This document shows, piece after piece, positions 18,829 to 64,000 of a stretch of DNA of 64,000 nucleotides. Under the pieces are notes generated by a model. It was not told where the DNA came from and ran no database searches. It saw nothing but the letters and a program-made list of their open reading frames with translations. The position numbers were made by a program, and so were the translations under genes. The DNA comes from Amphiura filiformis. Lineage: Eukaryota. The stretch lies in NCBI RefSeq assembly GCF_039555335.1, contig NC_092646.1:36987911-37051910 (forward strand). The letters run 5' to 3'. The first letter of the stretch is position 1; every line of letters begins with the position of its first letter.

Positions 18829-18892
18829 TGAAACATAAAAAGTACATCATTTATTTAAGGTTTCAAAAATGTCAAAAATCATGAAAAAAATG

Positions 18893-19871: not shown

Positions 19872-19890
19872 GTGAGTAGCTATTACACTT

Positions 19891-22529: not shown

Positions 22530-22537
22530 GTATATAA

Positions 22538-24798: not shown

Positions 24799-24830
24799 GT
24801 AAGAGCTTCAACCTCTTTACTGTAACGGGA

Positions 24831-25235
24831 CTATTCCAGTTGAAATCCTGACACCCATAGGAAGACATGACCTTAATCTCCCACACAGGGGGTGTAGATT
24901 GAAATTCACACAAGCTGTATGGGAGATTAAAGGCATTTCTTGCATAGGGGTTGTATTGATTTCAAGTGGAATCTCTTTGAAGGAACTAAAGTAAATTCTA
25001 AAAACTTGGTCAGTGATGTAATGAAACACTTGCCCGATGGCCCCAATGGCTCACCACCCAGTTCAAATCCATACACCCTCTAAGGAATACAAGACCTTAA
25101 TATTCCAAGTAGGGGAGTGTAGATTTCAAACGGAGTCACCCATTCTGGTAACCCAATTTGAAATTCACACTCCCTCTGTGGAAGATAAAAGCCATGTCTT
25201 CCATAGGGGGTGTAAAGATTTCAACTGGAATAGCA
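24831..25235. repeat. Family H, ~5 units, of the atgaccttaat-loop subtype.
   Basis: Starts 33 bp after the donor of exon 24663-24798. The ORFs 25037..25420 (+) and 24817..25029 (-) are artefacts. Confidence 0.8.
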
Positions 25236-26076: not shown

Positions 26077-26257
26077 GCTATTCCAGTTGGAATCCATACA
26101 CCCCCTATTGAAGACATGACCTTAATCCGCCACATAGGGAGTGTGAATTTTAGATAGGGTTACCTGAATGGGTGACTCCATTTGAAATCTACACCCCCTG
26201 TGTTGGAGATTACAGTCATGTCTTCCATAGGGGGCGTGTGGGTTTCAACTGGAATAG
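26077..26257. repeat. Family H, 2 units forming a larger palindrome.
   Basis: gctattccagttggaatcc ... ggtttcaactggaatagtc. Confidence 0.8.
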
Positions 26258-26339
26258 TCCATATATCTTATGAGGCAATCATTTTTGCAGGCTTCCACAT
26301 CCTGAAATTAACTGTTAAAGGTCTTTAAAATAAATAAAT

Positions 26340-26645
26340 GTTGTTTGATTTAACGTGCGCTTCAGCTAGGCATGACCTAATTATCAGCACACTTCAACAA
26401 TCTGCCATTAGGATATATCAGAATCATTTCCGCTTCACCAAGTCCGCAACTGATGCGCAGGTACTCTCAGCGACTTAGATTGTGATTACTCCCAGCAGCT
26501 CCCCATTTTACACCTGGGTGGAGTGAAGCAATTGGGAATTAAGCTTAAGGGTGCAACACACTGGCTGTGGTGGGGCTCGAACCCGCAACCTTTCGATTAT
26601 GAAGCTCGTGCCCTAACCATTGGGCCACCGTGCTGACACAATCAA
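26340..26645 (-). mobile_element. tRNA-derived SINE, or a tRNA pseudogene plus tail.
   Basis: Minus-strand 26535-26610 reads GGTGGCCCAATGGTTAGGGCACGAGCTTCATAATCGAAAGGTTGCGGGTTCGAGCCCCACCA. It has a D-arm, a GTTCGAGCC T-loop and a CCA end, but imperfect stems. The body continues to an A/T-rich tail near 26340. Confidence 0.55.
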
Positions 26646-27859
26646 CAGACTCGTACCCCATTTTTCTTCATCAAAACTGAAATTTTGGTATTAAAATAAA
26701 GCTTATTAACCCAGAAAATTTAATGCCCAAGATATTTGTCTACATGGTGTTAAGAAAAATGTGGTAAAGTGTGGTAACCACGCCGGAAGTATGTACTATC
26801 CTATGGGGCATTGTTATACACGTTTTTGCTTTTCATATCAAAACCGCTGGAGCAATACAACTCCAAATTGAGAGTTTTTAATGGTATGCTTCACACACAA
26901 GATAGAACACAGAGCATGAAAAATTGGGCCATGCCCTTTAAAAACGTGCAACTAAAACATTCACTAATTCAGAAAGTATGCATTATGAGAATTTTCAACT
27001 GTTAAAGGTCTTTAACCCGATCAACAGTCTCATACCCAACTTAATGTATTGCACCAGCTAATTTTCACAGTAAGACCAACTGATGGTATGTCATATTGGT
27101 TGAATATAGATTTACTAAAAATAACTCTCAAATTAATATTTGTGTCCTTTTTTTGTCAATATTGTGGTGGGTCACCTTTTTCAACAATAGAAACAGCAAC
27201 TACATTCAGAGTGAAGTACTCTTATAATTTTGTGTGGTTACAAGGCTTGGACCAACAAAAAAAAGAAAAGAAATATAAATAAATCAACATCCAGTACCAA
27301 CTTTGATTTGTCATCATTAGTGCCCCCTCTAATTAGCCCCCCCCCCCCATTATAATGTACACATTGTAAGCACCCCCTGTTAGCATGCAAGTGGGTAAAA
27401 AGTGTTATCAAATCACTGGTACCGGTGATTTAAACCATCTGGCCTGTGTTTTTATGCCTGTGACATATGCGTCCAGTTTTTATTTCTATTATTGTGAATT
27501 ACAACACTGCTTTGCATAGAAATGGCCATTGTGACTTTTCAGAATATACATATATATACTATAGAAGTAGTTATTTTCACATGCAGAAGTTTTTTTGCAA
27601 TTTCTAACAAAGGGGAGCTTTATGCATGATCATATTTTTATGCCATAACAATGTTATTATATATATGACAATTTAAGTTAATGTTCGAGTGTTGATTAAA
27701 TTTGTGGCCTCGCCTCTACTGGTTAAATTTGTGAAAAATAACCCCCTTGAAAATTACCACTTGTACTTGTACCTGTAGTACATTTAGAACAAGTATCCAT
27801 ATGAAATGGCTTTATAAATGCCTAGTGTGCAAAATTCCAAATGCCTGGTGTGCAAAATT

Positions 27860-28350
27860 AGGTTTAAAGCCATACTGTATGATTTCCGGCAAATTTTAGT
27901 TTTGTTATGCTGAAATAATATTAGTAATTAACAACCAGGAAGGTTTTCTTTCCATTTAAAGCTTAAAAAAAGGAAAGTGAAAGAAACCACACTGGCTACA
28001 GTTTGTCCACTCTGAAGTACAAAGTGACAACGCGAGCGTATACAGCGCGTAAACAGTGCACGGTGCTGCGTCTCTGCTGCAGATATGCGTGCCTTCAAAG
28101 TCGGCACAATGTGTGCGTCCGCGTCGGTACTTTGTACTTCAGAGTAGACTGACTGTATTTTGGTCATTTAACATGGAGCTCTATGGTGGACTTTATATCA
28201 AAATTGCTCTGTTGACCTACAAACACAACAAATTTTGCTGATTCCATTTAGGTGTAAGTTGGGACATCATTGTGTAAACATTACAAATATGCTAAAAAAA
28301 TCAGGTTTGAAAAAACAAAATTCATATTAAAGATCGTACATTATGGCTTT
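27860..28350 (+). mobile_element. Family X copy 2, carrying an extra internal ~150-bp hairpin (27985-28145).
   Basis: Same blocks as copy 1. The insert ctctgaagtacaaagtgacaacgcg ... cgcgtcggtactttgtacttcagag forms a stem. Confidence 0.7.
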
Positions 28351-28668
28351 AATTATGGTAAGTACTAGCAGGAGACAATGAAAGATCAGATTCATTGTCA
28401 AAGTAGTGCATAGCAGAATTATAATTTGTAGAAGATGCTGCAAGATGAGGAACACCTTGAGGAAAGCATGTGAAAAAAACACTGAAATTGAGCTTAAATT
28501 GAAAATTGTATGTGTGTTTCTTGCATTTTTGTTGGTAAAGAATATCTCTACAGTGCCTGATAAAAATAATGTCATTAAGCAGTAGATCAAAGTCATTTGA
28601 AACCATAGTGATCCAGGCCAAGTTTATTATTATGCTGGATAATTTGACATGCACTTGCTCTGGCAATG

Positions 28669-28852
28669 CGCTATTCCAATTAAAATCCTTACACCCTACG
28701 GAAGGAAGACATCGCCTTAATCTCCCACACAGGGGGTGGATTTGAAATGAAGTCACCCTTCATGTAACAACATTTAAAATCTACAACCCCTGTGTGTGGA
28801 AGATTAAGGTCATATCTTCCATAGGGGTGGATGGACTTCATCTGGAATAGCC
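28669..28852. repeat. Family H, 2 units.
   Basis: Same structure. The ORF 28349..28756 (-) is an artefact. Confidence 0.8.
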
Positions 28853-29009
28853 TAATACCCTGATCTTTTTTAGTAAAAATAATGTCGCATGAAAGACGGA
28901 AACCACTCAGCCTTGTAGTATATAAGAAATCGTTAGATCCTATTTTCTTTTAATATTTGCTGTAGATATCGTCTCTGACTTCTGATTTAAGGAATCAGAT
29001 AGTAAGGTT

Positions 29010-29600
29010 TGCACCGTATTTTTTGTGGGATCTGAGAGCAAATCAGACATATCGAATTACATTCTGAATACAAGGAATGTCCTGATATTAAATAATTTTT
29101 GATTTTTTGAAATTCGCGATACAATACAAATTTTATGGTAAATTAATCAAATTTGATATTTTTGATATTTAACAGTCCTCGAAGTAAACATTATAAATCT
29201 AATGATATGTACTTAAAGTGTATGTTGCTGGGATGAAAAGCTGACCATCAATTGAAAATTTTGACCTTTCATATTGAAGATATACATTTTTTTCCCCAAA
29301 AGACCTCAATTATTTTGGTGGATTTGGAAAAAATGTTATATCTTCGATACGAAAGGTCAAAATTTTCATAAGATGGATGGTTTTTCATCCCAGGTCCATA
29401 TACTTTAAGTACATATCATTAGATTTATACAATTACTTTGAGGACTATTAAATTAAAAATATCAATTTTAATCATTGCCATAAAATGTAATATATCATAA
29501 ATTTGACAAAATCTAAATTATTTGATATCAGAAGGACATTTCCTTGTTTTCAAAATACAATTTGATATGTCTGATGTGCTCTCAGCTCCCACACACACAA
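29010..29600. mobile_element. FB-family perfect palindrome of ~590 bp.
   Basis: The left arm 29010-29300 is the reverse complement of the right arm 29310-29600, centred at ~29305. Confidence 0.85.
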
Positions 29601-30404
29601 AAAAACAAAAACAATGTGAACACATGACTTTCTTGTGTGTCTTTTTGACCCGACGGACATGTGACAGACGCCTGTTGTTTTTGTTGTTCAGACTGGTTGT
29701 TGCTTGTGTGTCTTTTTCAATACCTTTAAAAATGACATCTACACCCCCTCTATACCCCTCTGCAAGATCTTTCTTGTGTGCCTAGACACACAAGAAAAAA
29801 TTGACATACAAGCTAGTTTTGTACTAAAAAAAAGACACACAAGCAAAGCCTTGTGAGAACATCACTACCCAAGCCCTTAAAAGGATAATACAGGCTGTAT
29901 CAAAATGATTGGTACCCATTGGTTTTGGTGTTTATTGAAAAGCCAGCTTTTTTCAAAGGCGACATTGGAGTGACCAGAAATTATATTTCATAACCTTTAA
30001 TCACTAAAATGTATTCATAACCTCATTAATATACGCAGCAAGTGCGATCCAATCACAGATAATAACTTTTAAATATGCGGACGCAAATGCAGGTCATTGA
30101 AAAAGTATAATGACCGCGTCTCATCGGAAGAAAAACGTGGAGGGAAAGAGTGTAGATCTCGGGGGACGCCGTGCCATTGAACAAAATAAGCGGACGCTGG
30201 CCGCCGTATTTGGACATCGCATGATTGCGTGCTAGTGTGATTGGTCGCTAGCGGTATTTCCGTAATGGGCTATTCGATTTTTTACAGGAAAAACGACAGA
30301 TAGGTTAAAATTTTGTTCAGTTTTCAAATTAAAAGAAGAAAATGTGATGTAAATTGATTTAAAAAATGAAAAGTGACAGTTATGAATGAGGTTTTATGAC
30401 TTTG

Positions 30405-30545
30405 CATCAGTTATTTTTCGGGTATTGTGAAATACCTAAACATTTTGCTTGGACCTCGGAATATCCCTCAGGGATGCGCCCCTCGGGATATTCCTCGGTG
30501 CCAAAGCACAATGTTTAGATATTTCACAATACCCGAAAAACAACC
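30405..30545. repeat. ~140-bp hairpin-forming inverted repeat.
   Basis: gttatttttcgggtattgtgaaatacctaaacatt ... aatgtttagatatttcacaatacccgaaaaacaac. Confidence 0.7.
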
Positions 30546-30730
30546 GATGCGCCGTCATTAACCTCTAAACAAGTATTGGTGGATCTTATGTTGCACTTTG
30601 CTGATGAGGCAGTCTAGTCCATAATCTGAAAACTGATGGATATCAATCATTTTGATAGCTTATTAGCATATCTCTTTTAAAGCATACTATTTTTTCTGGT
30701 GGGTCTTTAGCTGGCTAATGGGCTGTTTAA

Positions 30731-30980
30731 TATAAAATCCACACTACCCCTGTGGAAGATTTTAGAAATCTTTTGGGTGAGCATGAATTTCAAATAGAAT
30801 GAGCACATTTGCAGCTCTATTTGAAACTGGCCCTCCCTCAGTGGAAGATTCAGATTGAATCTTTCTCAGAGAGTGTATAAACTGCCTAATGTGTTCATTG
30901 TATTTGAAATTCATACTCCCCCTGCGGAAGATATTTCCAAAATCTCCCACAGGGGTAGTGTGTATTTTAAATTGAATAGC
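30731..30980. repeat. Family H, 3 units.
   Basis: Same structure. Confidence 0.8.
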
Positions 30981-31289
30981 ACAATATTCATGGATTCAAG
31001 ATTTTTTTCTATTGAGATGTACTCTCTGGAAAATACCTGATGATACCAACTTCCCATCACATCATTCATGCACAGCTGCACGGGCAATTTATAGCAATTT
31101 CCGACATGTGTCCCTGTAATAGGTTTTCAGCTATCTGTGTTTCTATTGATAGTATTTATTGATGTAATCCAATTTTTTTCCCATTCTGATGAACATGTTA
31201 TCTACTGATGATAGTATTTACTTCATACAAGATATATAACATGAATTTATACAAAGCATTTCATTAACAGGGGTAGTAGAAATATTTGT

Positions 31290-33720
31290 GTTAAAATAGG
31301 TGTACTACATAGCATTATCTACTGATAGTATTGAATAGTAAGTCCTGAAATATGTGCGATGAAGTGGGTTACAATTTATCTACTGGAGGTAGCATTGAAA
31401 ACTTCAGTGGAATGTGTGTAATAAATTGGACATGCTATGTACTGAAGATAACACTGAAAACTTAAATGGAATATGTGTGATGAAATGTATTACACAAACT
31501 TTAAATAGACATGCTACAAAAACAATGTATCTACTGAAGATAGCATTGAAAACTTGATTGGAATATGTGTAATAAAACAACAAAGATACTATCTAGTATC
31601 TACTGAAGATATAGCATTGAAAACTTGACTTAAATATGTGTGATGAAATGTATTACACAATTTAAAAAAAAAGGCATGCTAGAAAAACAATGTATCTACT
31701 GAAGATAGCATTGAAAACTTGACTTGAATATGTGTGGTGAAATGTATTGAATGCAAACTTTAAAATAGACATGCTATCTACTGAAGATAGCACTGAAAAC
31801 TTGACTTGAATGTGTGTGGTGAAATGTATAAATGCAAACTTTAAAATAGACATGCTATCTACTGAAGATAGCATTAAAAACTTGACTTGAATATATGTGA
31901 TGAAATGTATTACACACATTTTAAAATAGACATGCTATCTACTGAAGATAGCACTGAAAACTTAACTTGAATATATGTGATGAAATGTATTACACAAATT
32001 TTAAAATAGACATGCTATCTACTGAAGATAGCACTGAAAGATTGACTTGAATGTGTGACAAATTATATTAAATGCAACTTAAAAATGGACATGCTATCTT
32101 CTGAAGATAGCATTAAACACTTGCCTGGAATGTGTGTAATAAAATGGACATGCTATCTACTGAATATAGCATTGAAAACTTGACTTGAATATGTGTGGTG
32201 AAATGTATTACACAAACTTTAAAATAGACATGCTATCTACTGAAGATAGCACTGAAAACCTGACTTGAATCAACATTGTGACGAATTGTATTAAATGCAA
32301 ATTTAAAATGGACATGTTATCTTCTGAAGATAGCATTGAACATTTGACTGGAATGTGTGTAATAAAATGGACATGCTATCTACTGAAGATAACACTGAAA
32401 ACTTAACTTGAATATGTGTTATAAAATGTACATGCTATCTACTGAAGATATAGCATTGAAAACTTGATTTATGTATATTTGGTGAAATGTATTACACAAA
32501 CTTTAAAATAGACATGTTATCTACTGAAGATAGCACTGAAACATTGACTTGAATGTGTGACAAATTGTATTAAATGCAACTTTAAAATGGACATGTTATC
32601 TTCTGAAGATAGCATTAAACACTTGACTGGAATGTGTGTAGTAAAATGGACATGCTATCTAAGAAGAAAGCACTGAAAACTTGACTTGAATATGTGTGGT
32701 GAAATTTATCACACAAACTTTAAAATGAACATGTTATCTACTGAAGATAGCACTGAAACATTGACCGAAACATGTGAAAGGAAAATGGATGTATGCTATC
32801 TACTAAAGGAAGCACTGAATTCTTGAAATATATTATGCCAACTTCAAAATAGATATGCTATCTACTGAAGATAGCACTGAAAACTGGAATATGTGTGATA
32901 AATTGGACATGCTATCTTCTGAAGATACCACTGAAACCTTGACATGAATATGTGCAGTTAGATGTATTACACCAACTTTAAATTGGACATGCTGTCTACT
33001 GAAGATAGCACTGAATGCTTGAATGAAACGTGTGTAATGAAATGGATATATGCTATCTACTGAAAATAGGAATTCTTGACATGAATATGTGTGATGAAAA
33101 TTATCACACAAACTTTAAAATGAACATGTTATCTACTGAAGATAGCATTGAATGCATGACTGAAACATGTGTAATGAAAATGGATGTATGCTATCTACTG
33201 AATTAAGGAAGCATTGAATTTTTGAAATATATTACACCAACTTCAAAATGGATATGCTATCTACTGAAGATAGCACTGGATGCTTGACTTGAAAGATGTA
33301 TGATGAAATGCTATCTACTGAAGATAGCACTGAAAACTTGACTGCTATCTTCTGAAAGATACCACTGAAACCTTGACATGAATATGTGCAGTTAGATGTA
33401 TTACACCAACTTTAAAATGGACATGCTATCTACTGAAGATAGAACTGAATGCTTGACTGAAATATGTGTAATAAAATAGTCACATTAGACATTCTATCTG
33501 CTGAAGGTAGCACTGATTCTTGACTTACAGATTCATGATGAAATGCTATCTACTGAAGATACTAAAATTTTAACTGGAATATGTGTAATAAATTGGATGT
33601 GCTGTCTACTGATGATAGCACTGAAAACCTTGGCTTGAATATATGTTTGATGAAATATATTACACAAACTTTTGCTATCTACTGAAGGTAGCAAGCAGTC
33701 AAAACTTGACCTGACACTCA
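31290..33720. repeat. Satellite array, ~82-bp unit x ~30.
   Basis: The unit is gacatgctatctactgaagatagcactgaaaacttgacttgaatatgtgtgatgaaatgtattacacaaactttaaaata. The core gctatctactgaagatagc is itself a near-palindrome. The ORFs 31662..31919, 32833..33111 and 33533..33721 are artefacts. Confidence 0.9.
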
Positions 33721-34184
33721 TCTCCAGTTTTGAACCAGAGCTCCCCCCACTTGACTTTCTTCACATAAACTTTGATGAAAATATTATGTGTTTTCTCACA
33801 ATTTAAGATCAAAACTACCCAAGAAAGCTCTATATCATGCATAAAACATCAACATTTTCACAGAGATGCCAATTTTCCAAATAAATTTGGAATTTTTTGC
33901 AATTTTTACAAAAAAAGTCTGATAAAAAAATGCACATTTCGCTTAAAACAATATTGCCGTCCATTTCTAATTGTCACCCCCATAGGCTTTACATGTAAAA
34001 TAAAAAGGCTCGTAAAAATTTAATAGCCTCTAGTAAGGATGTAAAATTCACACCAAATGCTTTTTGAGTGATTACAAAGATAATTAAATACTTTTCATTC
34101 GGGGGCTATGTGGAATTTTTTTTTATGTATTCCTTGTACAATGACATTTCACAATAAAATGTCCATTGGAAACAAAGGTGTGAA

Positions 34185-34900
34185 GGAAGCACTGAATTCT
34201 TGAAATATATTACACCAACTTCAAAATGGATATGCTATCTACTGAAGATAGCACTGGATGCTTGACTTGAAAGATGTATGATGAAATGCTATCTACTGAA
34301 GATAGCACTGAAAACTTGACTGCTATCTTCTGAAAGATACCACTGAAACCTTGACATGAATATGTGCAGTTAGATGTATTACACCAACTTTAAAATGGAC
34401 ATGCTATCTACTGAAGATAGAACTGAATGCTTGACTGAAATATGTGTAATAAAATAGTCACATTAGACATTCTATCTGCTGAAGGTAGCACTGATTCTTG
34501 ACTTACAGATTCATGATGAAATGCTATCTACTGAAGATACTAAAATTTTAACTGGAATATGTGTAATAAATTGGATGTGCTGTCTACTGATGATAGCACT
34601 GAAAACCTTGGCTTGAATATATGTTTGATGAAATATAATACACAAACTTTTGCTATCTACTGAAGGTAGCAAGCAGTCAAAACTTGACCTGACACTCATC
34701 TCCAGTTTTGAACCAGAGCTCCGGCAGCTCCCCCATTTGACTTTCTTCACATAAACTTTGATGAAAATATTATGTGTTTTCTCACAATTTAAGATCAAAA
34801 CTACCCAAGAAAGCTTTATATCATGCATAAAACATCAACATTTTCACAGAGATGCCAATTTCCCAAATTAATTTGGAATTTTTTGCAATTTTTACAAAAA
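34185..34900. repeat. ~715-bp segmental duplicate of 33195-33910, covering the satellite's 3' edge and its unique flank.
   Basis: The two blocks are near-identical (~99%) and separated by ~275 bp of unique sequence. The ORF 34511..34828 (-) duplicates ORF 33533..33721. Confidence 0.85.
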
Positions 34901-34985
34901 CATTTTACAAAATTCAGTGCCTAAATTCAGCGTATTGATACCCTAATTTAATGGTTTATAACATTGTTATTTTTGTGTTTTTCAG

Positions 34986-35083
34986 GTCTCAATGGTTGGA
35001 TGAGGATGTAACAAGACAAAGTACCTGTGACTTAGAGGCAGATGCCGTCGCTGTCGATATATTAAATAGATTGGAAATAGAAG
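34986..35083 (+). CDS. REV3L: REV3L-like exon: (R)SQWLDEDVTRQSTCDLEADAVAVDILNRLEIE-
   Basis: Acceptor tgtttttcag| and donor GAAG|gtgagc. Matches human PQSTCELDVDAVAADILNRLDIEAQ. Confidence 0.82.
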
Positions 35084-37305
35084 GTGAGCATTGAATGATG
35101 TACACTGCAGATTTTACCTTTTTTGTTAACCCCATGGACTCCACTGCATTTCTTACCACGCCCCGATTGGTTAATCACATTATATATGATAATCTGGGTA
35201 ACCAATCAAAATAGAGCTTTTATATGTGACACGATCTGGTCCATGGGGGGCCAAAGGCGGCATTTTTGAAAATTTAGTTACTGTGATTATTATATTATAC
35301 ATAGGCTATCATTTACTGAAAACACCAAAGGTCTAGCATACTTGGTTCTTAAGTTATAAAGTTTTTTGATGTCTATTTTCTTATGTATTTTATTGTTTTT
35401 TGTTAAATATTTTTACCTTTACCTCAGTTTCAAATTTGCCGCCTTTGGCCCCCATGGACCAGATCATGTCACATATCTCTCTGCATTTTTAAGCTTAATC
35501 CCTTTCAGCCTGACGGGCTATTCTTACCATATGTGACCGTTCACTACGATTGAGCCGTAAATTCCTCCCCTGGTCAATTTAGTTTTATTTCATGTTTAGA
35601 AAATATATATATCATAAGCTTTAAAATGGTATATCATTTGACTTCAAACGATATCCAGAAGCAGGGTTATGGTTTGTTGAACTTTGCTCTTTCTACATGT
35701 GTCTCTTTTTCCATATTGCTGGTAAAAATATCAAACAGTCATAATTGGCGGTCATTTCAAATCATCCCCAAGTCAACGAGGTCCTCTCACCACTTGAACA
35801 GGATTTAGCCAAAGCAAACAAAGACCAGAGCTATTTAAAAATTCTATAGAAATAGGTAGAAGCTTATTATCCTCTTCAGCAATATGATTATTGATTGCTT
35901 TAAAAGATGTTTGACTAGCGCAATTAAAATCAGATACTTGTCACACCAACTTGAGGTACGTATGAATATGACCTTCATGCACATTTTACACTATAACTCG
36001 GAATACAATTTAGGACATTTACGGCTCATTCGTCGTGTACGGTCACATATCTGATATCCCTGATTGGCTCAATACATGATATAATCCACTTTTTAACCAA
36101 TCAAAATAGTTCTTCAGGTAATCTGGTCGGTAATGCCATGGGGTTAAAGCCTATAGTTTGCGTCTGACAATCAACTTCCTCACAGCCCATGATTGTTTAG
36201 TGGTATGTAAAAGGAAGGTTGATTCATCTGGTGCCTTCATCGAAGAAAAGGAATTGCAGAAAATGGCCAAAAATGATGGTACTTTAAATAGGCATTGTTG
36301 ATATGGTGGTTCAGGAAAGAAAGTTTCCAATTTACGACTAGGTGCAAAATTAAGCATAGAGCACAATGTTTTACCGTTGCATTCAGAAATTTCAATCATC
36401 ACAACAAGTTGTAAACTCTACACCCCCGGGATGATGTGTTTTGCGACACTCAAAAGGGGGAATGAGGTGGAAGTACCCTCTTGGAATAGTGCTTGGGGAA
36501 GTTGGGAAAAGGTTGATTGCCTTGTGCACTTTTATAGACAACATACATGTAGACTTGCAAAGTTGTGAAAAAACACTAAAAAAATGAAAAATGCACCTGA
36601 ACTATTTCATACAATTTGTGCATGATATTTTCAAAGATGCAGGTATCTCATTCAATGGTTTATGTAATAATATGTACCAGTTCTTTGAATAATGTAATCA
36701 GTAACAAAGGCTTTAAAGCCTAAATAATGATCACAAAATGGTTAAGTTAATCAGCAATGAATGAAACTAATTGGTATCTAACATATATTATGTTCCCTGC
36801 AAGCAAATCTTGTACCCTTCCCAGAATCCTTTGCAACATGATATACGGGCCTCATTTCACGTAACTTTGTACAGGTTCCCTTTGTTTTTATGTTGAGATT
36901 AGAATGGTTCAATATGGGTCAATAAGGGATGCACCATAAGATATTATCAGGGAAAATGTGCCTCACTGATGAGTAAAAAAATGTTTTCCCTACCCAGCTC
37001 TGTATGGACCCCATTGGAAATAAGTTGGCATATTTAGCCAACTTTATGGGTTATCCTGGCTCATTGACTTGGTTGTGTGTTTCTTGTGATGATGATTGAT
37101 TGCTTATTTGTTATTTTCTGTATTGTTGTCAATTTTGCCAAATAAATAATAAATAAATAAATATACATTAACATTGAAAAAAAAAATTGCCCCCAAAGGC
37201 AGTGAAAAAAAAATATGCCGCCTTAGGCGGCGAAAAAAAAAAATTCCGCCTGACACTAACTCCCTAGCCCCCAATAATATTTAATGGTGCGTCCCTAATA
37301 AAAAA

Positions 37306-37640
37306 AGCAATATTTTGCAACATCTGGATGTACTCTGTTCATTGCAGTACATTTCATCACTATTCGCTACTTGCACGGTTCCGCCATTATGCACTATGTG
37401 CGGGGAGAGCCTCGAACTGGCAGCATACATGAATGGGAATTGAACTAGGCATAACGTTCTGTGTAAGGTTACATAATTCTTCCTTTCATGTATGCTGCCA
37501 GTTCGAGGCTCTCCCCGCACATAGTGCATAATGGCGGAACCGTGCAAGTAGCGAATCAACCAATTTTCCACTAGATAGCAAATCAGTACAGGAAATTAAA
37601 GTGGTTGAAATGCATTGTGGGAAGTGTAAAATATCTATCT
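37306..37640. repeat. Dispersed repeat (homologous to 508-640) carrying a ~190-bp insertion that is a 70-bp perfect inverted repeat.
   Basis: The inverted repeat is 37367-37436 / 37490-37559 (tcgctacttgcacggttccgccattatgcactatgtgcggggagagcctcgaactggcagcatacatga) with a ~53-bp loop. Its flanks align with 508-640, which lacks the insert. Confidence 0.75.
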
Positions 37641-37787
37641 TCTCTGGCATTATTTTATCAGCTTTTGTAGTTTGTTATGCTTCAGGAAATATCCAGATAT
37701 CTAAAAATAACATTTTTATATCTAATGTATTCATTTTATTATAATCTAACCATGGATGTTCAGTGGAGGATGGTGAGGACATGGTGC

Positions 37788-38270
37788 TGTTCCATTTGAA
37801 ATCTATACACCCCCTGTGGAAGACATGACCTTAATCTTCCACACAGGGAGTGTAAATTTCAAATGGGATTGCCTGAATGGGCGATTCCATTTGAAATGGG
37901 ATTGCCTAAATGGTGATTCCAGTTGAAATTTACACCCCCTGTGGAAGACATGACCTTAATCTCCTACACAGGGAGTGTGAATTTCAAATGGGATAATCTG
38001 AATGGGTGATTCCATTTGAAATCTACACCCCCTGTGAAGGACATGACCTTAATCTTCCACACGGGGAGTGTGAATTTTAAATGGGATAGCCTGAATGGGC
38101 GATTCCATTTGAAATCTACACCCCCTGTAGAAGACATGACCTTGTCTTCCACACAGGGAGTGTGAATGGGGTAACCTGAATGGGTGGCTCCGTTTGAAGT
38201 CTACACCCCTTGCGCAGGAGAGAAAGATCATGTCTTCCATAAGGGGTATGGATTTCAACTGGAATAGCAC
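37788..38270. repeat. Family H, ~6 units with internal tandem duplication.
   Basis: Repeated gattccatttgaaatgggattgcct.aatgg. The ORFs 37964..38152 and 38049..38306 (-) are artefacts. Confidence 0.8.
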
Positions 38271-38425
38271 AATTGTCTGTTTTTTATGTTTCCTTCCTTG
38301 TTTCACAAAATTTTACTGACTTACTGTAATCGGTTTTCAACTAACACTGAAACACAAGTTGTCTTAGTTTGTTTTGTTTTCTGGCATACTAAAATTTATA
38401 TAAAAAAAGAATAAGCTAAAGTGGG

Positions 38426-38700
38426 TTATTCCATTTAAAATCCACACTACCCCTGTGGAAGATTTAGCTCAAGTCTGTCACAGAGGAAGTATCAATTTTG
38501 AATAGAATTGACAATTGGGAAACTTCCATTTGAAATACTCACTCCAGCTGTGGAAGATATTGGTAAAGCCATAATACAGGGGAAGTATGGGTTTCAAAAT
38601 GATTATCTCTGGCCAATTACATTTGAAAAACATACTCCCCCTTTGTACGATATTTCCAAAATCTTCCACAGGGGTAATGTGGATTTCAAGTGGAATAGCC
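38426..38700. repeat. Family H, 3 units.
   Basis: Same structure. The ORFs 38478..38723 (-) and 38508..38894 (+) are artefacts. Confidence 0.8.
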
Positions 38701-40367
38701 CAATACATGTACACAAAGTACAACTGGGAATGAATACTGTAAAACTACTTTTTTTTAATTTAATTTTTAATTTAATTTTTTTTATTTATTTGTTCGGGAT
38801 TTTGACAACCCTGGATAACCCAAGCTCTATTGAAGCTTATTTCCATTGGGGTCCATTTGAATACCGGGACGGGTTGGGAACAGTCAGGGGTTAACACCCT
38901 ACTCTTTTCGAAATTGGCTGTGAGATACATGTACAGGTATGGCTCTCTGCCACTTAATTTCGCTGGGGATATAATTTCGCTAATTTAATACACACTAATC
39001 TGACAGTTTTACATGTTTTGTTTGCTGAATTAGTGAAATTAAATATCAATGAAAATGGTAGTCCTTGGAAATGAGCAAAATCAAGAACTAGCAAAATTAA
39101 ATAGCTTTACAGTATATGTGATCTTATTGCACATTTAATGTGGAAGGGTGAGGTTATTGTCTGTTTGTTTGATGCTTGCTGTGATCAGTTGTCAACAGAA
39201 ATATTGTTTGATAAATTAGAATGTGAACTAAAGGGTGCAAACCACCAAATCAAGTTCCTATTCTTCTATGTGTTAAAAGGTATAGATAAATTGATAATTT
39301 TCTCATGATTAAAACTCCCTGGTTCATTCAAAACACCATTTTGCCTAATGTTTATGATATCTTCTACCATATAACCAATAATTTTTTGGTAGGTAAGCAG
39401 TAGTGGTGCACCATTTTGCCTAATGTTTATGATATCTTCTACCTTATAACCAATAATTTTTTGGTAGGTAAGCAGTAGTGGTGCATTGAAAACTACGTAA
39501 ACCCTATCAATCTTACAGCACACTGTCTTTATGAAGTGACATCATATGGTGGCGTAGATCCAATAACATACCTCAAATTTCAGAATGTAATCTTTTTATG
39601 CTTAGATGTTGAGAAAACCATCCACTAAAGTACAGTTATCACAAAAAAAATCAGGCATATCAGCATTCTTTTCAATTTTTTTTGTCATGAAATCAAGCCA
39701 GTATGGTTCTCAGAATGAAAACACTGTATTTTTTGGTATCAGCCATTTAGCTCTGATCCAATTTGGTGTTGTGAAATCTAAACATTTGGAAAGACTTCAC
39801 TAAATATGTGTACACAAAGTTGAAGCTGAAATAAATCAATAGGGCATCGCACATTGTAAGTTAGAAATAATATTGTCTGTTCTATGTTTGTTTGCTTGCT
39901 TTATGACTTGCTGTGTTAAGTTTTAATATTAACACAAGTAAAATGACCTGTACTCAATTTTTCAGAAAATAAATCTTGAATATTATTTACATATATACCA
40001 GTATTCAGATCATTACTTTATGTGAATTTTTTTATATGCCCATAAGGTACTTTTATGGGAAATGCACCATTGGGCACAATCAGGGTTGTAGCGACGGTGG
40101 CGGCGCTGGTCGGCAATAACCAGTTCAGCCTGACTGACCGGCACTCATGGGAATTAATGGGTCTTGCCGACCAGCACTAAAATGACAAATTGTCCTCAAA
40201 ACAGCTGTCAAATGCCATTACTGTCTTGAAGTAATTGGCATTCTGATTCAATTTTCTCTTAATTTTAGCCGGCACTAAACTTTGACTAGCTACAGCCCTG
40301 GCTGCACAATTTGACCCGATTTGTTTTTATGGGCACAATTTGACCCAATTTGTTTTTATGGTTGCAG

Positions 40368-40472
40368 GGGCAGTGGGTGCGAATCCTGGCTTGGTAGCTA
40401 TCTGGGAAGATGAGAAACAAAGGAGAGAGTTGCTGGGACAATTGGATGACTTAGTGCCGCCATCCTCACCAG
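40368..40472 (+). CDS. REV3L: REV3L-like exon: GAVGANPGLVAIWEDEKQRRELLGQLDDLVPPSSP-
   Basis: Acceptor tggttgcag| and donor CACCAG|gtgaga. Matches human GGNPGLQAIWEDEKQRRR. Confidence 0.82.
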
Positions 40473-40994
40473 GTGAGAAAACAGTTACGGGAAGAATCAT
40501 GGTGTAAATCAAGGCTTTGTGCTGTTTATACTTTGCTTAACTTTAGACTCATAACTTTGTGAAGATAGTGTGCACACAGTTTGGCGCAGCACCTTGCACG
40601 CAGTTGGGCGCAGGAATATGTATGTGACCAGATCTGATCCAATTTGGCTAAAGTCAGCAATAATGAAACTGAGATATAGGCAAAAAGTACTAGTGTGGAG
40701 GGATAAAAACCCAATAAGAAACATAAAAATAGACATATAAAATGTTCATAATTTTGCAACCAAATAGTCAAGAGATCTGGGGATTCAACATCAGTAAGTG
40801 TACTTAGGTACTGTGCAAGTTGGTAATTTTCTGACTTTGGCCTGAGTGGATCAGGTTGGGTCACATATTTTAGGAATGGTTATAAGAAGAGAAATAGGAG
40901 AGCCAGTAAGGAAGCCCTCATCCCAACCCTAAACCTATTCCTAAACATAACTTTGACGTAATCCTAATTCATATCCTAACCATGACCTAACCCA

Positions 40995-56224: not shown

Positions 56225-56262
56225 GTGTAATGGATGCCTTGGAGTCACTACACATGTCACAG

Positions 56263-56375
56263 GCCTGGGACGATGAGACACCAAAGAATGAGATGGAAGA
56301 TGGAGATGATGATGACGAGGAGGAGGTGGAGGATGAAGGGGGAGAGGAAGGAGATTTGTATAATACCCCAAATAG
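56263..56375 (+). CDS. REV3L: REV3L-like exon part 2: AWDDETPKNEMEDGDDDDEEEVEDEGGEEGDLYNTPN-
   Basis: Acidic open frame that ends at the classic donor AATAG|gtaagg. It joins in frame to part 1 only through a 38-nt excision. The alternative is a frameshift in the assembly. Confidence 0.55.
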
Positions 56376-57564
56376 GTAAGGTGATATTGAAGAGGTTAGA
56401 CTACTCCCTATTCCATAAAAATACAGCACTTTTTTGAGACTAAAAAGATATTATCCTGTTTTGCCAAATGAAACATAACTAAATCCCAATCCTTTAGCTA
56501 GTTCTAACTGGCAATTACAGTCAAATTTGAATATTTTTCCAATTTGAGGGAAAATGGACAAAATTGTGCAATTTTGCATGTTTTCTTACAAATGTAGTCC
56601 CAAATTCTAAGACTTGGCACAAATCTAAGCATTCAAAATCTTGAGCATAGGCCAATAATTAGCTAAAAATTTAAATATTTTGTGTTATTTTTGATAATTG
56701 GTTATGAAAAAGATTAGAAAATATGCTTTCCAAAATTTAGAATGAATTAGTCTTTGTACAAGTTTTTTGTTTTGATTGTCACAACATACGAAAAAAAAAC
56801 CTAAAACACATGTTGAGCAATTTAAAATTATTTGTGCTCAATTGTCGTCAGTCTTCCTTGTCTAACTGGGACATCATTACCACAGGCAATTTCTGTGCTT
56901 GGGAAATTTGAATAACATGTGGTGAGAGACGGCTGTGGTTATTTGTTTTTAAGGTCAATATGAGTTTGTTGTAATAAAACCATGTGATTTGTGCTTGATA
57001 AGTCATAATGTTGTGATTGCTTGAGACTCCCTTTAATAGTTAAGAGAGTATGACATGAACACAAATTATCACTGCATATTAAAAACGCAAACTTTGTTTG
57101 TAAGTCAACCATGAATGATCCTAGCATTTAGCTTTAAGTCCAGGGACACGTCAAAAAAAAATACTTTGGAGGAGGATTTTTTTGTTCAATAGAAAGCTAA
57201 ACATAAAGGATGTGTGTACTTAGTGTGTGATGTTGGTGATGTATTTTACATTGTAAAACCCTATAAAAAGATGTCAAATAGCTTGTTTTGGGCACTGTTT
57301 AATGGCTTAAACCCAGGAGCTTGGGGCAGTGCCCCTGGACCAGAGGCCCTAAGCTGAGCCCTTGGACCCCTGCTGCTAAATCGCCCCCCTAAACTCGCTT
57401 CGCTCTATTGGACTCAGTTTCCTAGGTTTTTAATGTTGGAAGGTATGCCACACTTACAAAACAAAATAACACATAATTATGCTCATCAACTGTATTAATT
57501 TTAATGTGAATGGAGCATTGCTATTATTAGATGAACAAATCTCTGACATTATGATTTCTTACAG

Positions 57565-57677
57565 TACTCTAGAAGAACTTGAAGATGCCTTGATATCAAT
57601 CACCAATGCTGATGAAGCACAGAAGTCTGCTTTACCTCAGTATGATGGACCTGGTGATGAAGAAGAAGAACCAGCAG
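57565..57677 (+). CDS. REV3L: REV3L-like exon: STLEELEDALISITNADEAQKSALPQYDGPGDEEEEPA-
   Basis: Acceptor tgatttcttacag| and donor GCAG|gtaggg. The same frame appears in the supplied ORF 57479..57730. Phase consistent. Confidence 0.7.
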
Positions 57678-57939
57678 GTAGGGTTCAAACTTCAAGCCAT
57701 AATGATTTTGATCCAAACACAAGGAATTAATTCCTACCTAGGAATTTTCAGATGATACTCCATCTTTCATCAGCAAGTGAGTGACTGTATCAGGTTGTGA
57801 ACTTTTTGACCTTTGACCTGATAACAGACCTGATAACAGACCTGATAACAGACCAATTAATTAATTCCTTGTGTTTGGATCAAAAGTTTAAATCAAAATC
57901 ATGTTTATACCAACACAGAAGAACTTTCATGAACGTTAA

Positions 57940-59963: not shown

Positions 59964-62900
59964 CACTGGTACCAGTAGTGGAAGTGGAAACCAAGAGAAG
60001 AAGAAATATTCAAAAGCCAAGCAGGTACCTTGAAGATGATGACTTCTACTTTGTACCCAGTATTAAACCAAAATCAGCACAAGGCAAGAAGAAGCAGCGA
60101 AAGAAAAACATCAAGAAAAGCAACTTTGATACACCATCAACTAGCGGTACTGATGCAAGCAATAACAGCCCAAAAGATAAACTTTTGAAAGAGTTTGTGA
60201 TCAAGATAACGGATCGATTCGATGAGGAGATGATCAAAAAGATCCCGTACTGGAATCCAGTTTTAGAAGTTAGAAAATTGAGTCATGATTCAATCGATGA
60301 GTTTGTAGGGTTTGGACGTGCGAAGGAAGGGCAGGACAAGGACGACGGAACAATATGGGGTGTAAAACAGGATTCTTTAAGCAAAGGAATGGTCAAAAAG
60401 ACTCTGGGTATAAAAAGCATCAATGCAACAACTCAAGACTTGTTGAGTAAAGCGCCACCTTCCCATAAGAATCAGACATCTTCTAGCAAGAAAGTGCCAG
60501 TGAAAAGAACTCTAGGTATTAAGCGTAGAAGAGAACCTAGCGGCGACGCCAGCGATTCAAGCAACACAAGCGCCGCTAGCCACTACTACAGCATGCGCAC
60601 AAAACGGGAACGAGTCATGTACAGGGAAGATGATGACTTTGACGAGATATTGGAGCTGACTGATTATAGCAGGACACGCGGCGATGAAGTCGACGATGGG
60701 GATGATGATGATGATTCCGATGTCGATAGGGACTTGAAGTCCTGGAAGACGTACGATAGCCCAATGCGATATAAGCAACCTTTGGTGATTTTGAACAAAG
60801 CAACATTGTCGCAAACAATAAATTCAGGAAAAGGTAGAAAAAGCACGATACAGCATACAAAATTCATATCGAAACTGTCTAGCGGTAGAAAACATCAACA
60901 AAAGGAAGAGAGCGTTCTTTCCGATTTGTCTATGGAAACCGATAATGATAGTGCAGTTGAGGTTATCGAAGAAACCACCTCGGATGAAGATGAAATTACA
61001 GTACCTGAGGATGATATGGCTATGAATAATGTACCATTAGTTGGATCAAAAGAGATGGTAGATAGTGACCCAGTTAGCACTGGAAGTGAGGAGTGTGATG
61101 TTGTGTCGCCCACATTGTTCGAAGATACAATCATTTCCCCTCAAAGTACTGCTGAAGCTAGCAGGGGCGAGCAGGAAGAGTCGATGGGTGTAAGCTCACT
61201 ACCGGAGAAAAAGGACGGTGGAAATGCTGCAGCACCAAGCCAAGATACCAGCGATATAAATGATAGCAAATTATATCCCATCCATATGGGAGATAACGCT
61301 CGTAGTCGTATTTACAGCTCGTTGCCTGCAAGTCCAACGAGAGAAGGAATGCCGCCATTCCGTCGCGGTTGCAGGACTCGCGGTGGTAAACGACACTTTG
61401 GACAAGCGCCATCTAGGGCCAGCTCTTACTCGCCGGATCAGTGGGGTCCACCAATGTTCAGAATAGGTACGGATGAAAGTAAAGAAGAATATTGTGATGT
61501 TATGTGGAGGCTGTCGTATTTCTCCCCGCTTCGCCCGGATCCAGAGCCCTCTCCACCGCGGGCTTGGTCACCAACGCGCCTAGCAATGAACTCAGAAGAC
61601 AACGTGCCTTGGATTAGTGGAAATAATTACGATGCAAAGAAAAATGGTGACATCCTGACAACCCTTTCTTGCTTTGACAGTGATCAGATGATGCAAGAGA
61701 TGGCCGAATTTGGACGAGATCATGATCTCTTCCAGTCCTTCACTTGTCAACCCAACGAGAACATTGAAGTGACTGGAGAGGGCGCTAGTAAGATTGTGCC
61801 TGAAGATTCAGAGGCGACGAGGAGTAAAGACACAGCAGAAACATCGATGGAATTTGATGCGGTACCTGAATCGCAATCTGAAGAGGATGAGAGCACAGGA
61901 GGAGAAGTTAAAACAACTACTCTATCAGTGGGTGAACCAAATAACAATATCGGTTCTGGCTGTGATGAGAAGAATCCATCAACTTACGCTGGAGAGTCTA
62001 AAGTGTCTGATCTGACATCGCAGCAAGATGACGATGCTGCAGCTAAGAAATATGAGCCCATTAAGCCTCTTGAAATGAGAGGGGACCCATCGAAGAAAGT
62101 CGTCGGGACAGTGCATCCAACTCAACATGTGAAATCAACAGAGAATGAACTTGAAAGGCAATCTTCAGAAGAAAGTGATAAAGTACTGTTTGATTTAGAC
62201 CAAGGTAAAATTGAAACGGCAGCGATAAAAACGAGGGCAGACAGTCTGTCTGCTGGACTGAAGTCGCCACTTGATGCGGATCCAAATGTCTCTATGGTGC
62301 CATCTTCTAATCCGATGAGTTTGATGTCGCCGACAGGTCATCCATCGAGATTCTTTCCAGTACTAAAACAAAATGATGCTATTGCACCAAAAGACTCAAC
62401 TTCTTTAAATGACATTCATGACACAAATACCTCTGTAAGTGGAGGAGAAATGAAAATGAGTTTACAAGAAGATGAAGTTCAGAATCGGACAGATCCACCA
62501 GCAACTACAGATAGTCAGCAAAGTGATTCCTCATCACCTTTGACCCCAGGTCAAAGGCAACAGGAAACAAGACACTCACCGACCCCCAACTCCCCATCAG
62601 ACTCTGAGGATTCTTCTAACGAAGGCAAGAGCACCTCAAGCACTCCTGTAGACTTTGACTTTCTGTCTACCCTAGATGAGAAGACGGACAAAACCAGTGA
62701 TGAAATAATGAGTAATGTTGGTAGTACTTCAGTAGGCAATGAGTTGTCCACCGAACCAGCATCTGGTGATTTAAGCGAGGTAGCAGATGTGGAGCATTCT
62801 GATGGGACTGAAACTCCAGCAAGTAATGTTGTTACACCTTGGAAGACTTTCTCCAGCAACTTCATGACACCAGTTAAAGCTGCTAATGGGGATTCATTGT

Positions 62901-64000
62901 CTTTCGGATCAAATGAGGGAGATAGTATCGCAGGATCTAAAAGTATTAATTCGGGTATAGCGCAAGGTGACGATCAAAGTAAACCTTCAGAAACATTTAC
63001 AGGTGATGCTTTGACCTCAGCGAAAGCAGATGAAGGTAGCTTGAACAAAGATGTTGCCACTTTTGAAAGACCTCAAGCAGGTCTGTCAGATATGGAATAT
63101 AGCAGTAACTCAGGGTGCCAGACATTCTCATCAACTGACGACATCATGACGCCAGTGAAAACTCCTTTGGAAACATGTGCAGATGATGTTTTGACCACAG
63201 TGAAAGCAGATGAAGGTAGCTTGAACAAAGATGTTGCCACTTTTGAAAGACCTCAAGCGGGTCATTCGGAAATGGAAGATAGAGGTAACTCAGGGTGGGA
63301 GACATTCTCCTCAACTGACGACATCATGACACCAGTGAAAACTCTTTTGGAAACATGTGCAGATGATGTTTTGACATCACTGAAAGCAGATGAAGGTAGC
63401 TTGAACAAAGATATTGCCACTATTGAAAGATCTCAAGCTGGTCAGTCGGAAATGGAACATGGAGGTAACTCAGGGTGGGAGACATTCTCCTCTACTGATG
63501 ACATCATGACGCCAGCAAAAACTGCGCTAAGTAGTGAACAGACTGCTGTAAATCGTGAACAATCCTTACCGGATTCAGACGAGGAAAATGCTGTATCACA
63601 AAGTACTAAATTAGATGTGGTGGAAGAAACAACTCTAACATGCAGCTCCAATATCAGCGATAGCAAGGATACAGTGCTAAAGTCATCATTGCCTATTTCT
63701 GAAATTTCGAAAGTTGAAATTACAAATGATGCTGTTGCCATGGAGAATGATCCAAGTGGCAAATGTGAAAATGTATCAGAGTCATTATTACCAAGTTCTG
63801 GTAAAACACAGGAAGTTTGTGCTGTGGAGATACATGAGGAAGGTCAATTGGACAAAGGGTCCTCTTTGTTAGGTTTAGACTCTAAAATTCAAAAACCTGA
63901 GATGCCAAATTCGGAACCCTTACAGGAGGCATCAGAAAGTGATGATTTTAGTCAAGAAAAAATTGCTGCAAGTGAAAAGGATCTGGATCCAGCAGGCATG
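59964..64000 (+). CDS. REV3L: REV3L-like giant exon, 3'-partial. More than 1340 codons are open to the window end. The product is a Ser/Asp/Glu-rich, low-complexity central region.
   Basis: Acceptor tttttttcctcacatag| at 59962-63. A single frame stays open for ~4.04 kb in sequence that is otherwise stop-rich. It joins in phase 1 to the previous exon. This is the counterpart of the ~4 kb exon known in vertebrate REV3L. The only minus-strand ORFs here are short antisense shadows. Confidence 0.85.

What the first reader, a model, noticed from the sequence alone, without database searches (positions are those of the whole stretch)
62999..63535. In-frame 180-bp (60 aa) tandem repeat x3.5 inside the giant REV3L exon.
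Units run 62999-63178, 63179-63358 and 63359-63535: (A)DDVLT..KADEGSLNKDVATFERPQAG.SEME...NSGWETFSSTDDIMTPVKT.LETC. Units 2 and 3 are almost identical at the nucleotide level, which implies recent expansion. A partial upstream copy encodes WKTFSSNFMTPVKAA at ~62830-62890. All copies preserve the reading frame. This is a lineage-specific, repeat-driven expansion of the disordered spacer of Pol zeta. The conserved W-x-TFSS-x-D-IMTP motif could be a repeated short linear interaction motif.
Basis: seen in the sequence. Interest (0 to 1): 0.55.

Follow-up and report, generated by a model that had tools for sequence, protein, structure and literature searches.

The report
In-frame triple repeat in REV3L exon
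A real 180-base, in-frame triplication sits in the disordered middle of a brittle star's DNA polymerase zeta (REV3L) gene and raises the count of a short conserved peptide motif from one to four; it is an ordinary kind of protein evolution, and any function of the motif is untested.

Summary
Tandem Repeats Finder reports a 180-bp repeat, 3.0 copies (not 3.5), 90% matches and no indels at 62990-63523. It lies in frame in an open exon of at least 4 kb (59964 to the window end). The window is Amphiura filiformis. The exon is identical to RefSeq XP_072019148.1 ('uncharacterized protein'). Upstream exons encode the Pol zeta N-terminal domain, so the REV3L call is correct. Units are 86-91% identical (dS 0.14-0.24), so they are neither 'almost identical' nor very recent. 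The upstream 'partial copy' (62840-62878, WKTFSSNFMTPVK) is not a tandem remnant. It is the ancestral motif, kept as a single copy (WKVFNDDLMTPVK) in the only detectable relative (assembly GCA_013332995.1). That relative lacks the 180-bp repeat and has an unrelated in-frame 102-bp x2.6 repeat at the same place. Inside the units the motif block has 5 synonymous and 3 nonsynonymous changes, against 2 and 13 in the linkers (p=0.026). This suggests constraint on the motif. Every copy contains T-P-x-K, an optimal CDK-type site. No Pfam family matches, AlphaFold confidence is low, and nothing outside brittle stars is detectably similar. Verdict: a real, lineage-specific coding tandem repeat in a disordered spacer, of a known kind and low-to-moderate interest.

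The parts
59964..64000 (+). Giant central exon of the REV3L orthologue. It stays open to the window end and continues beyond it. It is identical to XP_072019148.1 residues 87-1432.
   Evidence: 1355-codon open frame in otherwise stop-dense sequence of about 36% GC. 100% identity to P0001. The acceptor ...TTTTTTTTCCTCACATAG| lies just before 59964.
62988..63523 (+). In-frame tandem array, period 180 bp (60 codons), 3.0 copies.
   Evidence: TRF 62990-63523, 90% matches, no indels, score 851; lag-180 identity profile; blastn of the unit against the window.
62999..63178 (+). Unit 1: TGDALTSAKADEGSLNKDVATFERPQAGLSDMEYSSNSGCQTFSSTDDIMTPVKTPLETC. It carries 12 private changes. Its motif Trp is replaced by Cys and the next residue Glu by Gln, through two adjacent changed bases (TGGGAG to TGCCAG).
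63179..63358 (+). Unit 2: ADDVLTTVKADEGSLNKDVATFERPQAGHSEMEDRGNSGWETFSSTDDIMTPVKTLLETC. It is closest to the consensus, with 3 private changes.
63359..63523 (+). Unit 3: ADDVLTSLKADEGSLNKDIATIERSQAGQSEMEHGGNSGWETFSSTDDIMTPAKT. Similarity to the other units ends at 63523.
62840..62878 (+). Motif copy 0, WKTFSSNFMTPVK. This is the older copy outside the array. It is orthologous to the single WKVFNDDLMTPVK of the relative P0002/L001.
63116..63160 (+). Motif copy 1, CQTFSSTDDIMTPVK (Trp lost).
63296..63340 (+). Motif copy 2, WETFSSTDDIMTPVK.
63476..63520 (+). Motif copy 3, WETFSSTDDIMTPAK.
2718..40486 (+). Span holding six collinear upstream exons that encode the Pol zeta N-terminal domain: 2718-2906, about 15940-16020, about 19800-19874, 22442-22510, 35002-35088 and 40361-40486. 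They identify the gene.
   Evidence: tblastn; PDB yeast Rev3 3.7e-17; Pfam POL3_N 8e-26; named Pol zeta homologues.
56230..57685 (+). The two exons that begin the RefSeq model XP_072019148.1 (56230-56373 and 57563 to about 57680). The model starts in the middle of the gene, so the annotation has split REV3L.

Best explanation
The feature is a genuine in-frame tandem triplication of a 180-bp (60-codon) segment. It lies in the acidic, Ser/Thr-rich, probably disordered spacer encoded by the giant central exon of the Amphiura filiformis REV3L gene (catalytic subunit of DNA polymerase zeta). SHOWN: three head-to-tail units with no indels or stops, 86-91% identical to each other. They are absent from the only detectable relative, which has its own unrelated in-frame repeat at the same position. 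Each unit carries a copy of an older motif of about 15 residues, W-x-T-F-S-S-(2-4 residues)-M-T-P-V-K. This motif exists once just upstream of the array and once in the relative, so the motif count rose from 1 to 4. INFERRED: two rounds of unequal recombination or replication slippage in the Amphiura lineage made the array. The exon tolerated them because the period is a multiple of three and the region has no fold to disrupt. This happened well before present-day allelic coalescence (dS 0.14-0.24 against 3.2% heterozygosity). INFERRED with modest support: the motif is under purifying selection while the linkers drift, so it behaves as a short linear motif and the triplication raised its valency. 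SPECULATIVE: every copy contains T-P-x-K, the optimal CDK-type site, with a hydrophobic residue two positions before the Thr. The motif may therefore be a phospho-regulated docking or multisite-phosphorylation module that tunes Pol zeta.
For: Repeat anatomy. Coding status and gene identity: and PMC4699697 for the single large exon that encodes most of the mammalian central region. Lineage specificity and an independent repeat at the same site: L001 has one motif followed by a 102-bp x2.6 in-frame repeat at L001 3415-3680. Its 34-aa unit is unrelated to the 60-aa unit (score 27 against a shuffled mean of 30.8). Age: Nei-Gojobori dS 0.136, 0.188 and 0.240; heterozygosity 3.22% (PMC11310086). Constraint on the motif: 5 synonymous and 3 nonsynonymous changes in the motif block, against 2 and 13 in the two linker blocks, Fisher p=0.026. 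Motif-block pS is 0.261 and pN 0.045, while the linker blocks have pN about equal to or above pS. Motif 0 is conserved with the relative (W, K, F, M-T-P-V-K-A identical) in a stretch where sliding identity is otherwise about 0.2-0.5. Disorder: no Pfam family, mean pLDDT 45.9 and pTM 0.19, net charge -21 over 175 residues, 24% Ser+Thr. T-P-x-K in all four copies. S/T-P-x-K/R is the optimal CDK consensus, CDK sites cluster in disordered regions, and Cks1 is specific for phosphothreonine (PMC12062237).
Against: Counts are small (27 variable sites), and the block boundaries were partly chosen after seeing the data, so p=0.026 is only suggestive. Whole-unit dN/dS is 0.39-0.76, so constraint is weak overall. 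Unit 1 has lost the motif's Trp, so not every copy is maintained. Conservation rests on a single relative of unidentified species. The central exon has no detectable homologue elsewhere among 1.84 billion representatives, so deeper conservation of the motif could not be tested. The AlphaFold model used a single sequence, which gives low confidence in any case. No expression, copy-number or phosphorylation data were available. T-P-x-K is a four-residue pattern, and the exon has five other [ST]-P-x-[KR] matches.
Confidence: 0.6

Rival explanations
1. Neutral repeat expansion with no function. The triplication is tolerated junk in a fast-evolving disordered spacer, and the motif looks conserved between units only because of limited divergence and chance.
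For: Whole-unit dN/dS is 0.39-0.76. Unit 1 lost the Trp. The synonymous/nonsynonymous contrast rests on 23 classified changes with partly post hoc blocks. The same position in the relative holds a completely different repeat, which shows that the site accepts arbitrary insertions. The exon as a whole evolves so fast that nothing outside brittle stars is detectable.
Against: The motif block has the highest synonymous divergence (pS 0.26) but low nonsynonymous divergence (pN 0.045). Simple youth or gene conversion would not produce that pattern. Motif 0 is conserved across species that are only 49-55% identical overall.
Confidence: 0.33
2. Assembly artefact: a single unit was wrongly expanded, or haplotypes were stacked in tandem.
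For: The species is highly heterozygous (3.22%) and at least one published assembly is nanopore-based (PMC11310086). No second assembly or read set could be examined.
Against: Units differ by 9-14.5%. That is far more than allelic divergence and far more than the near-identity of assembler-made duplicates. The differences are substitutions only, with no indels, unlike long-read error. The frame is preserved throughout.
Confidence: 0.03
3. The 60-residue units are a folded domain repeat, not disordered spacer.
For: AlphaFold draws long helices across the unit junctions (residues 119-153 and 179-222 of the query), with pLDDT up to about 69 in places.
Against: Mean pLDDT is 45.9 and pTM 0.19, with 206 of 287 residues below 50. 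No Pfam family matches at E<=1. The composition is acidic and Ser/Thr-rich.
Confidence: 0.04

Closest known systems
Mammalian REV3L central region encoded by the single large exon 14 (4162 bp, 1386 aa in human)
   Same: The gene is the same one (the Pol zeta N-terminal domain lies upstream in the window). The architecture is also the same: one giant exon of at least 4 kb encodes a long, poorly conserved central spacer (PMC4699697).
   Different: There is no detectable sequence similarity between the brittle-star exon and non-ophiuroid proteins, and no Pfam family is found in it. The papers I read do not mention a 60-aa tandem repeat in REV3L; their only 'tandem repeat' mentions concern cell-line STR fingerprinting.
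Coding minisatellite-type in-frame tandem repeats in intrinsically disordered protein regions
   Same: Head-to-tail units whose length is a multiple of three, no frame disruption, lineage-specific copy number and independent origin at the same site in a relative. The general phenomenon is well documented (for example PMC5100051 and PMC9879509, listed).
   Different: The units have diverged by 9-14.5% and are not near-identical, so this is an old, fixed-looking array and not an obviously unstable VNTR. Polymorphism was not tested.
Clusters of optimal CDK sites (S/T-P-x-K/R) with Cks1 phosphothreonine docking in disordered regions
   Same: There are four T-P-x-K sites, all threonines, spaced 60 residues apart in a disordered acidic segment (consensus and Cks1 specificity from PMC12062237). 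From my own recollection, not checked here, a hydrophobic residue at -2 (F, I or L in these motifs) fits the reported Cks1 preference.
   Different: This is only a sequence match. No phosphorylation, kinase or Cks dependence is shown, and the W-x-T-F-S-S part of the motif has no counterpart in the CDK/Cks consensus.
REV7-binding motifs of REV3L (phi-phi-x-P-x-x-x-x-P-S-R)
   Same: Both are short linear motifs in the REV3L spacer that occur in more than one copy (PMC4333420).
   Different: The repeated motif here has no P-x-x-x-x-P core and does not fit the consensus. A partial fit (VIKPKVVPTGR) lies in P0001 beyond the window end and outside the repeat.

Membership tests
REV3L / DNA polymerase zeta catalytic subunit gene | N-terminal domain shared with Pol delta and Pol zeta (Pfam POL3_N, REV3_N) | tested here: met
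   POL3_N at 8e-26, 90.8 bits against a cut-off of 24.1. The best PDB chains are yeast Rev3 7lxd/6v8p at 3.7e-17, ahead of Pol delta at 1.1e-13. The homologues are named Pol zeta and carry PF24065 and PF24055. REV3_N itself scored only 0.54, because only its last 9 profile positions are in the query I assembled.
REV3L / DNA polymerase zeta catalytic subunit gene | Long central region encoded mostly by one giant exon | tested here: met
   The exon is open from 59964 to at least 64000. For comparison, human exon 14 is 4162 bp (PMC4699697).
REV3L / DNA polymerase zeta catalytic subunit gene | REV7-binding motif phi-phi-x-P-x-x-x-x-P-S-R | tested here: inconclusive
   None lies in the window. P0001 has VIKPKVVPTGR beyond the window end, which fits phi-phi-x-P and the final R but not the P-S (consensus).
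REV3L / DNA polymerase zeta catalytic subunit gene | B-family polymerase domain and C-terminal Fe-S cluster | not testable with these tools
   These lie downstream of the window. The locus of P0001 is not on record.
In-frame coding tandem repeat in a disordered region | Head-to-tail copies with a period that is a multiple of three and no frame disruption | tested here: met
   Period 180, 3.0 copies, 0% indels, no stops.
In-frame coding tandem repeat in a disordered region | The host segment lacks a stable fold | tested here: inconclusive
   pLDDT 45.9 and pTM 0.19 from a single-sequence model. No Pfam family. Acidic, Ser/Thr-rich composition. This is consistent with disorder but is not proof.
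In-frame coding tandem repeat in a disordered region | Copy number varies between individuals (VNTR behaviour) | not testable with these tools
   No second Amphiura assembly or read set was reachable. P0001's cluster has one member.
Short linear motif (SLiM) | A short conserved island within fast-evolving disordered sequence, conserved in orthologues | tested here: met
   W-K-x-F-x4-M-T-P-V-K-A is shared with P0002. The motif block has 5 synonymous and 3 nonsynonymous changes, against 2 and 13 in the linkers, p=0.026. There is only one orthologue and the counts are small.
Short linear motif (SLiM) | A defined binding partner or modifying enzyme | not testable with these tools
   This needs experiment. 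No ELM-type resource was available.
Optimal CDK phosphorylation site | Sequence S/T-P-x-K/R | tested here: met
   TPVK at 62867, 63149 and 63329; TPAK at 63509. Consensus as stated in PMC12062237.
Optimal CDK phosphorylation site | Actual phosphorylation by a CDK | not testable with these tools
   There are no phosphoproteomic data for this species in the tools.
Structured domain repeat | Match to a known domain family or a confident predicted fold | tested here: not met
   0 Pfam families at E<=1 for the array. Low-confidence model.

The most novel reading that the evidence does not exclude
The W-x-T-F-S-S...[F/I/L]-M-T-P-V-K element could be a previously unrecognised regulatory short linear motif of REV3L. 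It might be a phosphothreonine-dependent (CDK/Cks-type) docking or multisite-phosphorylation module that couples Pol zeta to the cell cycle or to a partner protein. In that case Amphiura has quadrupled it, which would change the valency of that regulation in a highly regenerative animal.
Probability: 0.12. Interest if true: 0.5.

Novelty: new member of a known kind. Interest (0 to 1): 0.2.

Why it matters
The practical value is an annotation fix. RefSeq XP_072019148.1 ('uncharacterized protein') is the central part of a split REV3L gene model. The locus also gives a clean small example of how the giant REV3L spacer evolves: by in-frame repeat gain, independently and at the same spot in two brittle-star lineages. 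If the repeated motif proves to be a functional, phospho-regulated docking site, it would be a new handle on the poorly understood central region of Pol zeta. Nothing here shows that yet.

Tried and rejected
1. Pfam on the exon, on P0001, on the array alone and on the two antisense ORFs (62551-62865 and 63442-63762, minus strand) gave no family at E<=1.
2. Rfam on 62000-64000, both strands, E<=0.1, gave nothing.
3. A word-index protein search with the repeat region (62780-63640) returned nothing, not even P0001, which contains the query exactly. I treat it as an uninformative negative.
I re-ran with the single 1200-aa sequence and found only P0001 and P0002. Motif conservation outside brittle stars therefore could not be tested.
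5. The search with the N-terminal domain confirmed the gene name but returned only short fragments (331 aa or less), so there were no full-length orthologues to scan for the motif.
6. The genomic locus of P0001 is not on record, so the exon end beyond 64000 could not be read.
7. The species of GCA_013332995.1 / JAAUXV01 was not found in the paper library. It is not Ophioderma brevispinum, whose accession is JAMKCH.
8. I tested whether the upstream motif is the remnant of a fourth, degenerate unit. Only 15 residues align significantly and the spacing is off register, so I rejected it.
9. I tested whether the relative's 34-aa repeat is homologous to the 60-aa unit. The score is below the shuffled mean, so I rejected it.
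10. From memory, human REV3L has 'WKTAFSAMTQNP' between its two REV7-binding sites, which resembles WKTFSSNFMTPVK. I could not retrieve the human sequence with the tools, so this stays an unverified lead and carries no weight in the verdict.

Full report
**What is in the sequence.** Tandem Repeats Finder reports one array in the region: 62990-63523, period 180, 3.0 copies, 90% matches, no indels, score 851. A lag-180 identity profile rises from background (about 0.3) to 0.8-1.0 at about 62988 and falls back at about 63523. Unit 2 matches unit 1 and unit 3 at blastn E = 6e-68 and 5e-63 and matches nothing else in the 64-kb window, so this is not a dispersed element.

Three details in the finding are wrong. 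The array has 3.0 copies, not 3.5. Unit 3 ends at 63523. Units 2 and 3 are not 'almost identical': U2-U3 are 90.9% identical, U1-U2 89.7% and U1-U3 85.5% over the shared 165 nt.

**Which gene.** The exon translation is 100% identical to XP_072019148.1, a 1515-aa 'uncharacterized protein' of the brittle star Amphiura filiformis. No Pfam family matches it. I used a human REV3L N-terminus recalled from memory only as a probe. It located six collinear + strand exons between 2718 and 40486. I joined the window's own translations of those exons and scored them against curated libraries. They match Pfam POL3_N at 8e-26. Their best solved-structure matches are yeast Rev3 chains (7lxd and 6v8p, 3.7e-17), ahead of Pol delta at 1.1e-13. 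Their database homologues are named 'DNA polymerase zeta catalytic subunit' and carry REV3_N plus POL3_N.

The RefSeq model begins at exons at 56230-56373 and 57563 to about 57680. The giant exon starts at 59964, after a polypyrimidine tract and an AG. A single exon of at least 4 kb encoding the central spacer matches mammalian REV3L, where exon 14 (4162 bp, 1386 aa) encodes most of the central region (PMC4699697).

**Comparison with relatives.** Only one other protein is detectably similar to the exon. This holds both in the word-index search and in an exhaustive phmmer scan of 1.84 billion representatives. That protein is P0002 (49-55% identity), on a 5.3-kb contig of assembly GCA_013332995.1. 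I could not identify its species.

The two proteins are collinear. At the position of the window's upstream 'partial copy' (WKTFSSNFMTPVK, 62840-62878) the relative has WKVFNDDLMTPVK. This is a small conserved island in a poorly conserved stretch. After it the two sequences cannot be aligned until 'NDAVAME...'. In that gap Amphiura has the 3 x 180-bp array. The relative instead has a different in-frame tandem repeat, 102 bp x 2.6 (L001 3415-3680). Its 34-aa unit is unrelated to the 60-aa unit: the alignment score is 27 against a shuffled mean of 30.8.

It follows that the 180-bp array is lineage-specific and that the upstream motif is the ancestral copy, not a decayed tandem unit. Only 15 residues of the upstream region resemble the unit (p about 0.008), and the spacing is 276 nt, not 180. 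The same spot has gained in-frame repeats independently in two lineages.

**Age and selection.** Nei-Gojobori synonymous divergence between units is 0.14-0.24 and dN/dS is 0.39-0.76. The species' heterozygosity is 3.22% (PMC11310086), so the duplications are much older than allelic variation, which argues against the 'recent' reading. It also argues against an assembly artefact: the units differ by substitutions only, at 9-14.5%.

Substitutions are unevenly distributed. The motif block (NSGWETFSSTDDIMTPVKT) has 5 synonymous and 3 nonsynonymous changes. The two linker blocks have 2 and 13 (Fisher p=0.026). Motif-block pS is 0.26 and pN 0.045. This is what purifying selection on the motif with drifting linkers would give. 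The counts are small, however, and the blocks were partly chosen after inspection. Unit 1 has lost the Trp and changed the next residue through two adjacent base changes (TGGGAG to TGCCAG).

**Nature of the segment.** The array is acidic (net charge -21 over 175 residues) and 24% Ser+Thr. It matches no Pfam family. A single-sequence AlphaFold model has mean pLDDT 45.9 and pTM 0.19, with only tentative helices across the unit junctions. That is consistent with disorder but weak as evidence. There is no Rfam match, and the antisense ORFs have no family.

**How it most likely works.** The duplications most likely arose by unequal recombination or replication slippage. This is inferred. A period divisible by three in an unfolded spacer makes such events harmless.

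The functional consequence I consider most likely is a rise in the valency of a short linear motif from 1 to 4, or to 3 intact copies plus one lacking the Trp. Every copy contains T-P-x-K. That is the optimal CDK consensus S/T-P-x-K/R. Such sites cluster in disordered regions, and Cks1 docks specifically on phosphothreonine (PMC12062237). From memory only, the hydrophobic residue at -2 (F, I or L) also fits the reported Cks1 preference. A phospho-regulated docking or multisite-phosphorylation module is therefore my preferred mechanistic guess, but it is speculative. The main rival is a neutral expansion with no function.

**Comparison with what is known, and verdict.** In-frame tandem repeats in disordered protein regions are a well-known mode of evolution (examples listed). 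REV3L's giant spacer exon and its short REV7-binding motifs are also known. The repeated motif does not fit the REV7 consensus. The REV3L papers I read do not describe a tandem repeat in the gene; their 'tandem repeat' hits concern cell-line STR typing.

I file this as a new member of a known kind: real, correctly assigned to REV3L, lineage-specific and of low-to-moderate interest (0.2). The most novel reading not excluded is that the motif is an unrecognised regulatory SLiM of Pol zeta (probability about 0.12).

Noticed in passing
window 2806-3767 (+): A 325-bp x3.0 tandem repeat (92% matches) spans the last ~100 nt of a REV3L N-terminal-domain exon (2718-2906, ending ...HVFKVSLVTGM|GTAAGT) and the start of the following intron. 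The exon's 3' end and its GTAAGT donor are therefore present three times. The extra copies translate at 3133-3231 and 3458-3556. They could act as decoy or alternative 5' splice sites.
   Followed up: partly
window 56230-64000 (+), and 2718-40486 (+): RefSeq XP_072019148.1 ('uncharacterized protein', 1515 aa) starts at 56230 in the middle of the REV3L gene. The Pol zeta N-terminal-domain exons lie upstream in the same orientation, so the public gene model appears to be split.
   Followed up: partly
L001 3355-3357: The relative's copy of the giant exon (contig JAAUXV010182626.1, GCA_013332995.1) has an in-frame TGA right after the conserved motif, and the same frame stays open for another 531 codons. 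This is probably a draft-assembly error or a variant, but a pseudogene or a real truncation is not excluded.
   Followed up: no
L001 3415-3680: An independent in-frame 102-bp (34-aa) x2.6 tandem repeat (QVESSKDNIPSLSDLSKNSDANKSTELFEADGIK) sits at the position equivalent to the Amphiura array and is unrelated to it in sequence.
   Followed up: yes
P0001 residues ~1470-1485 (beyond window end); L001 ~4300-4350: A conserved block PIPFQSQTSAFTVIKPKVVPTGR (in the relative: PVPFQSQTSAFTAIKPKMVPS) partly fits the REV7-binding consensus phi-phi-x-P-x-x-x-x-P-S-R. It may be the brittle-star REV7-binding site.
   Followed up: no
window 60701-60715: A perfect (GAT)5 microsatellite encodes a poly-Asp run (DDDDD) inside the same exon. 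It is the only other tandem repeat TRF finds in 60000-64000.
   Followed up: no
window 62780-63640 as protein query: The word-index protein search returned no hit for this query, although P0001 contains it exactly. Negatives from that tool on repeat-rich queries should not be trusted.
   Followed up: yes
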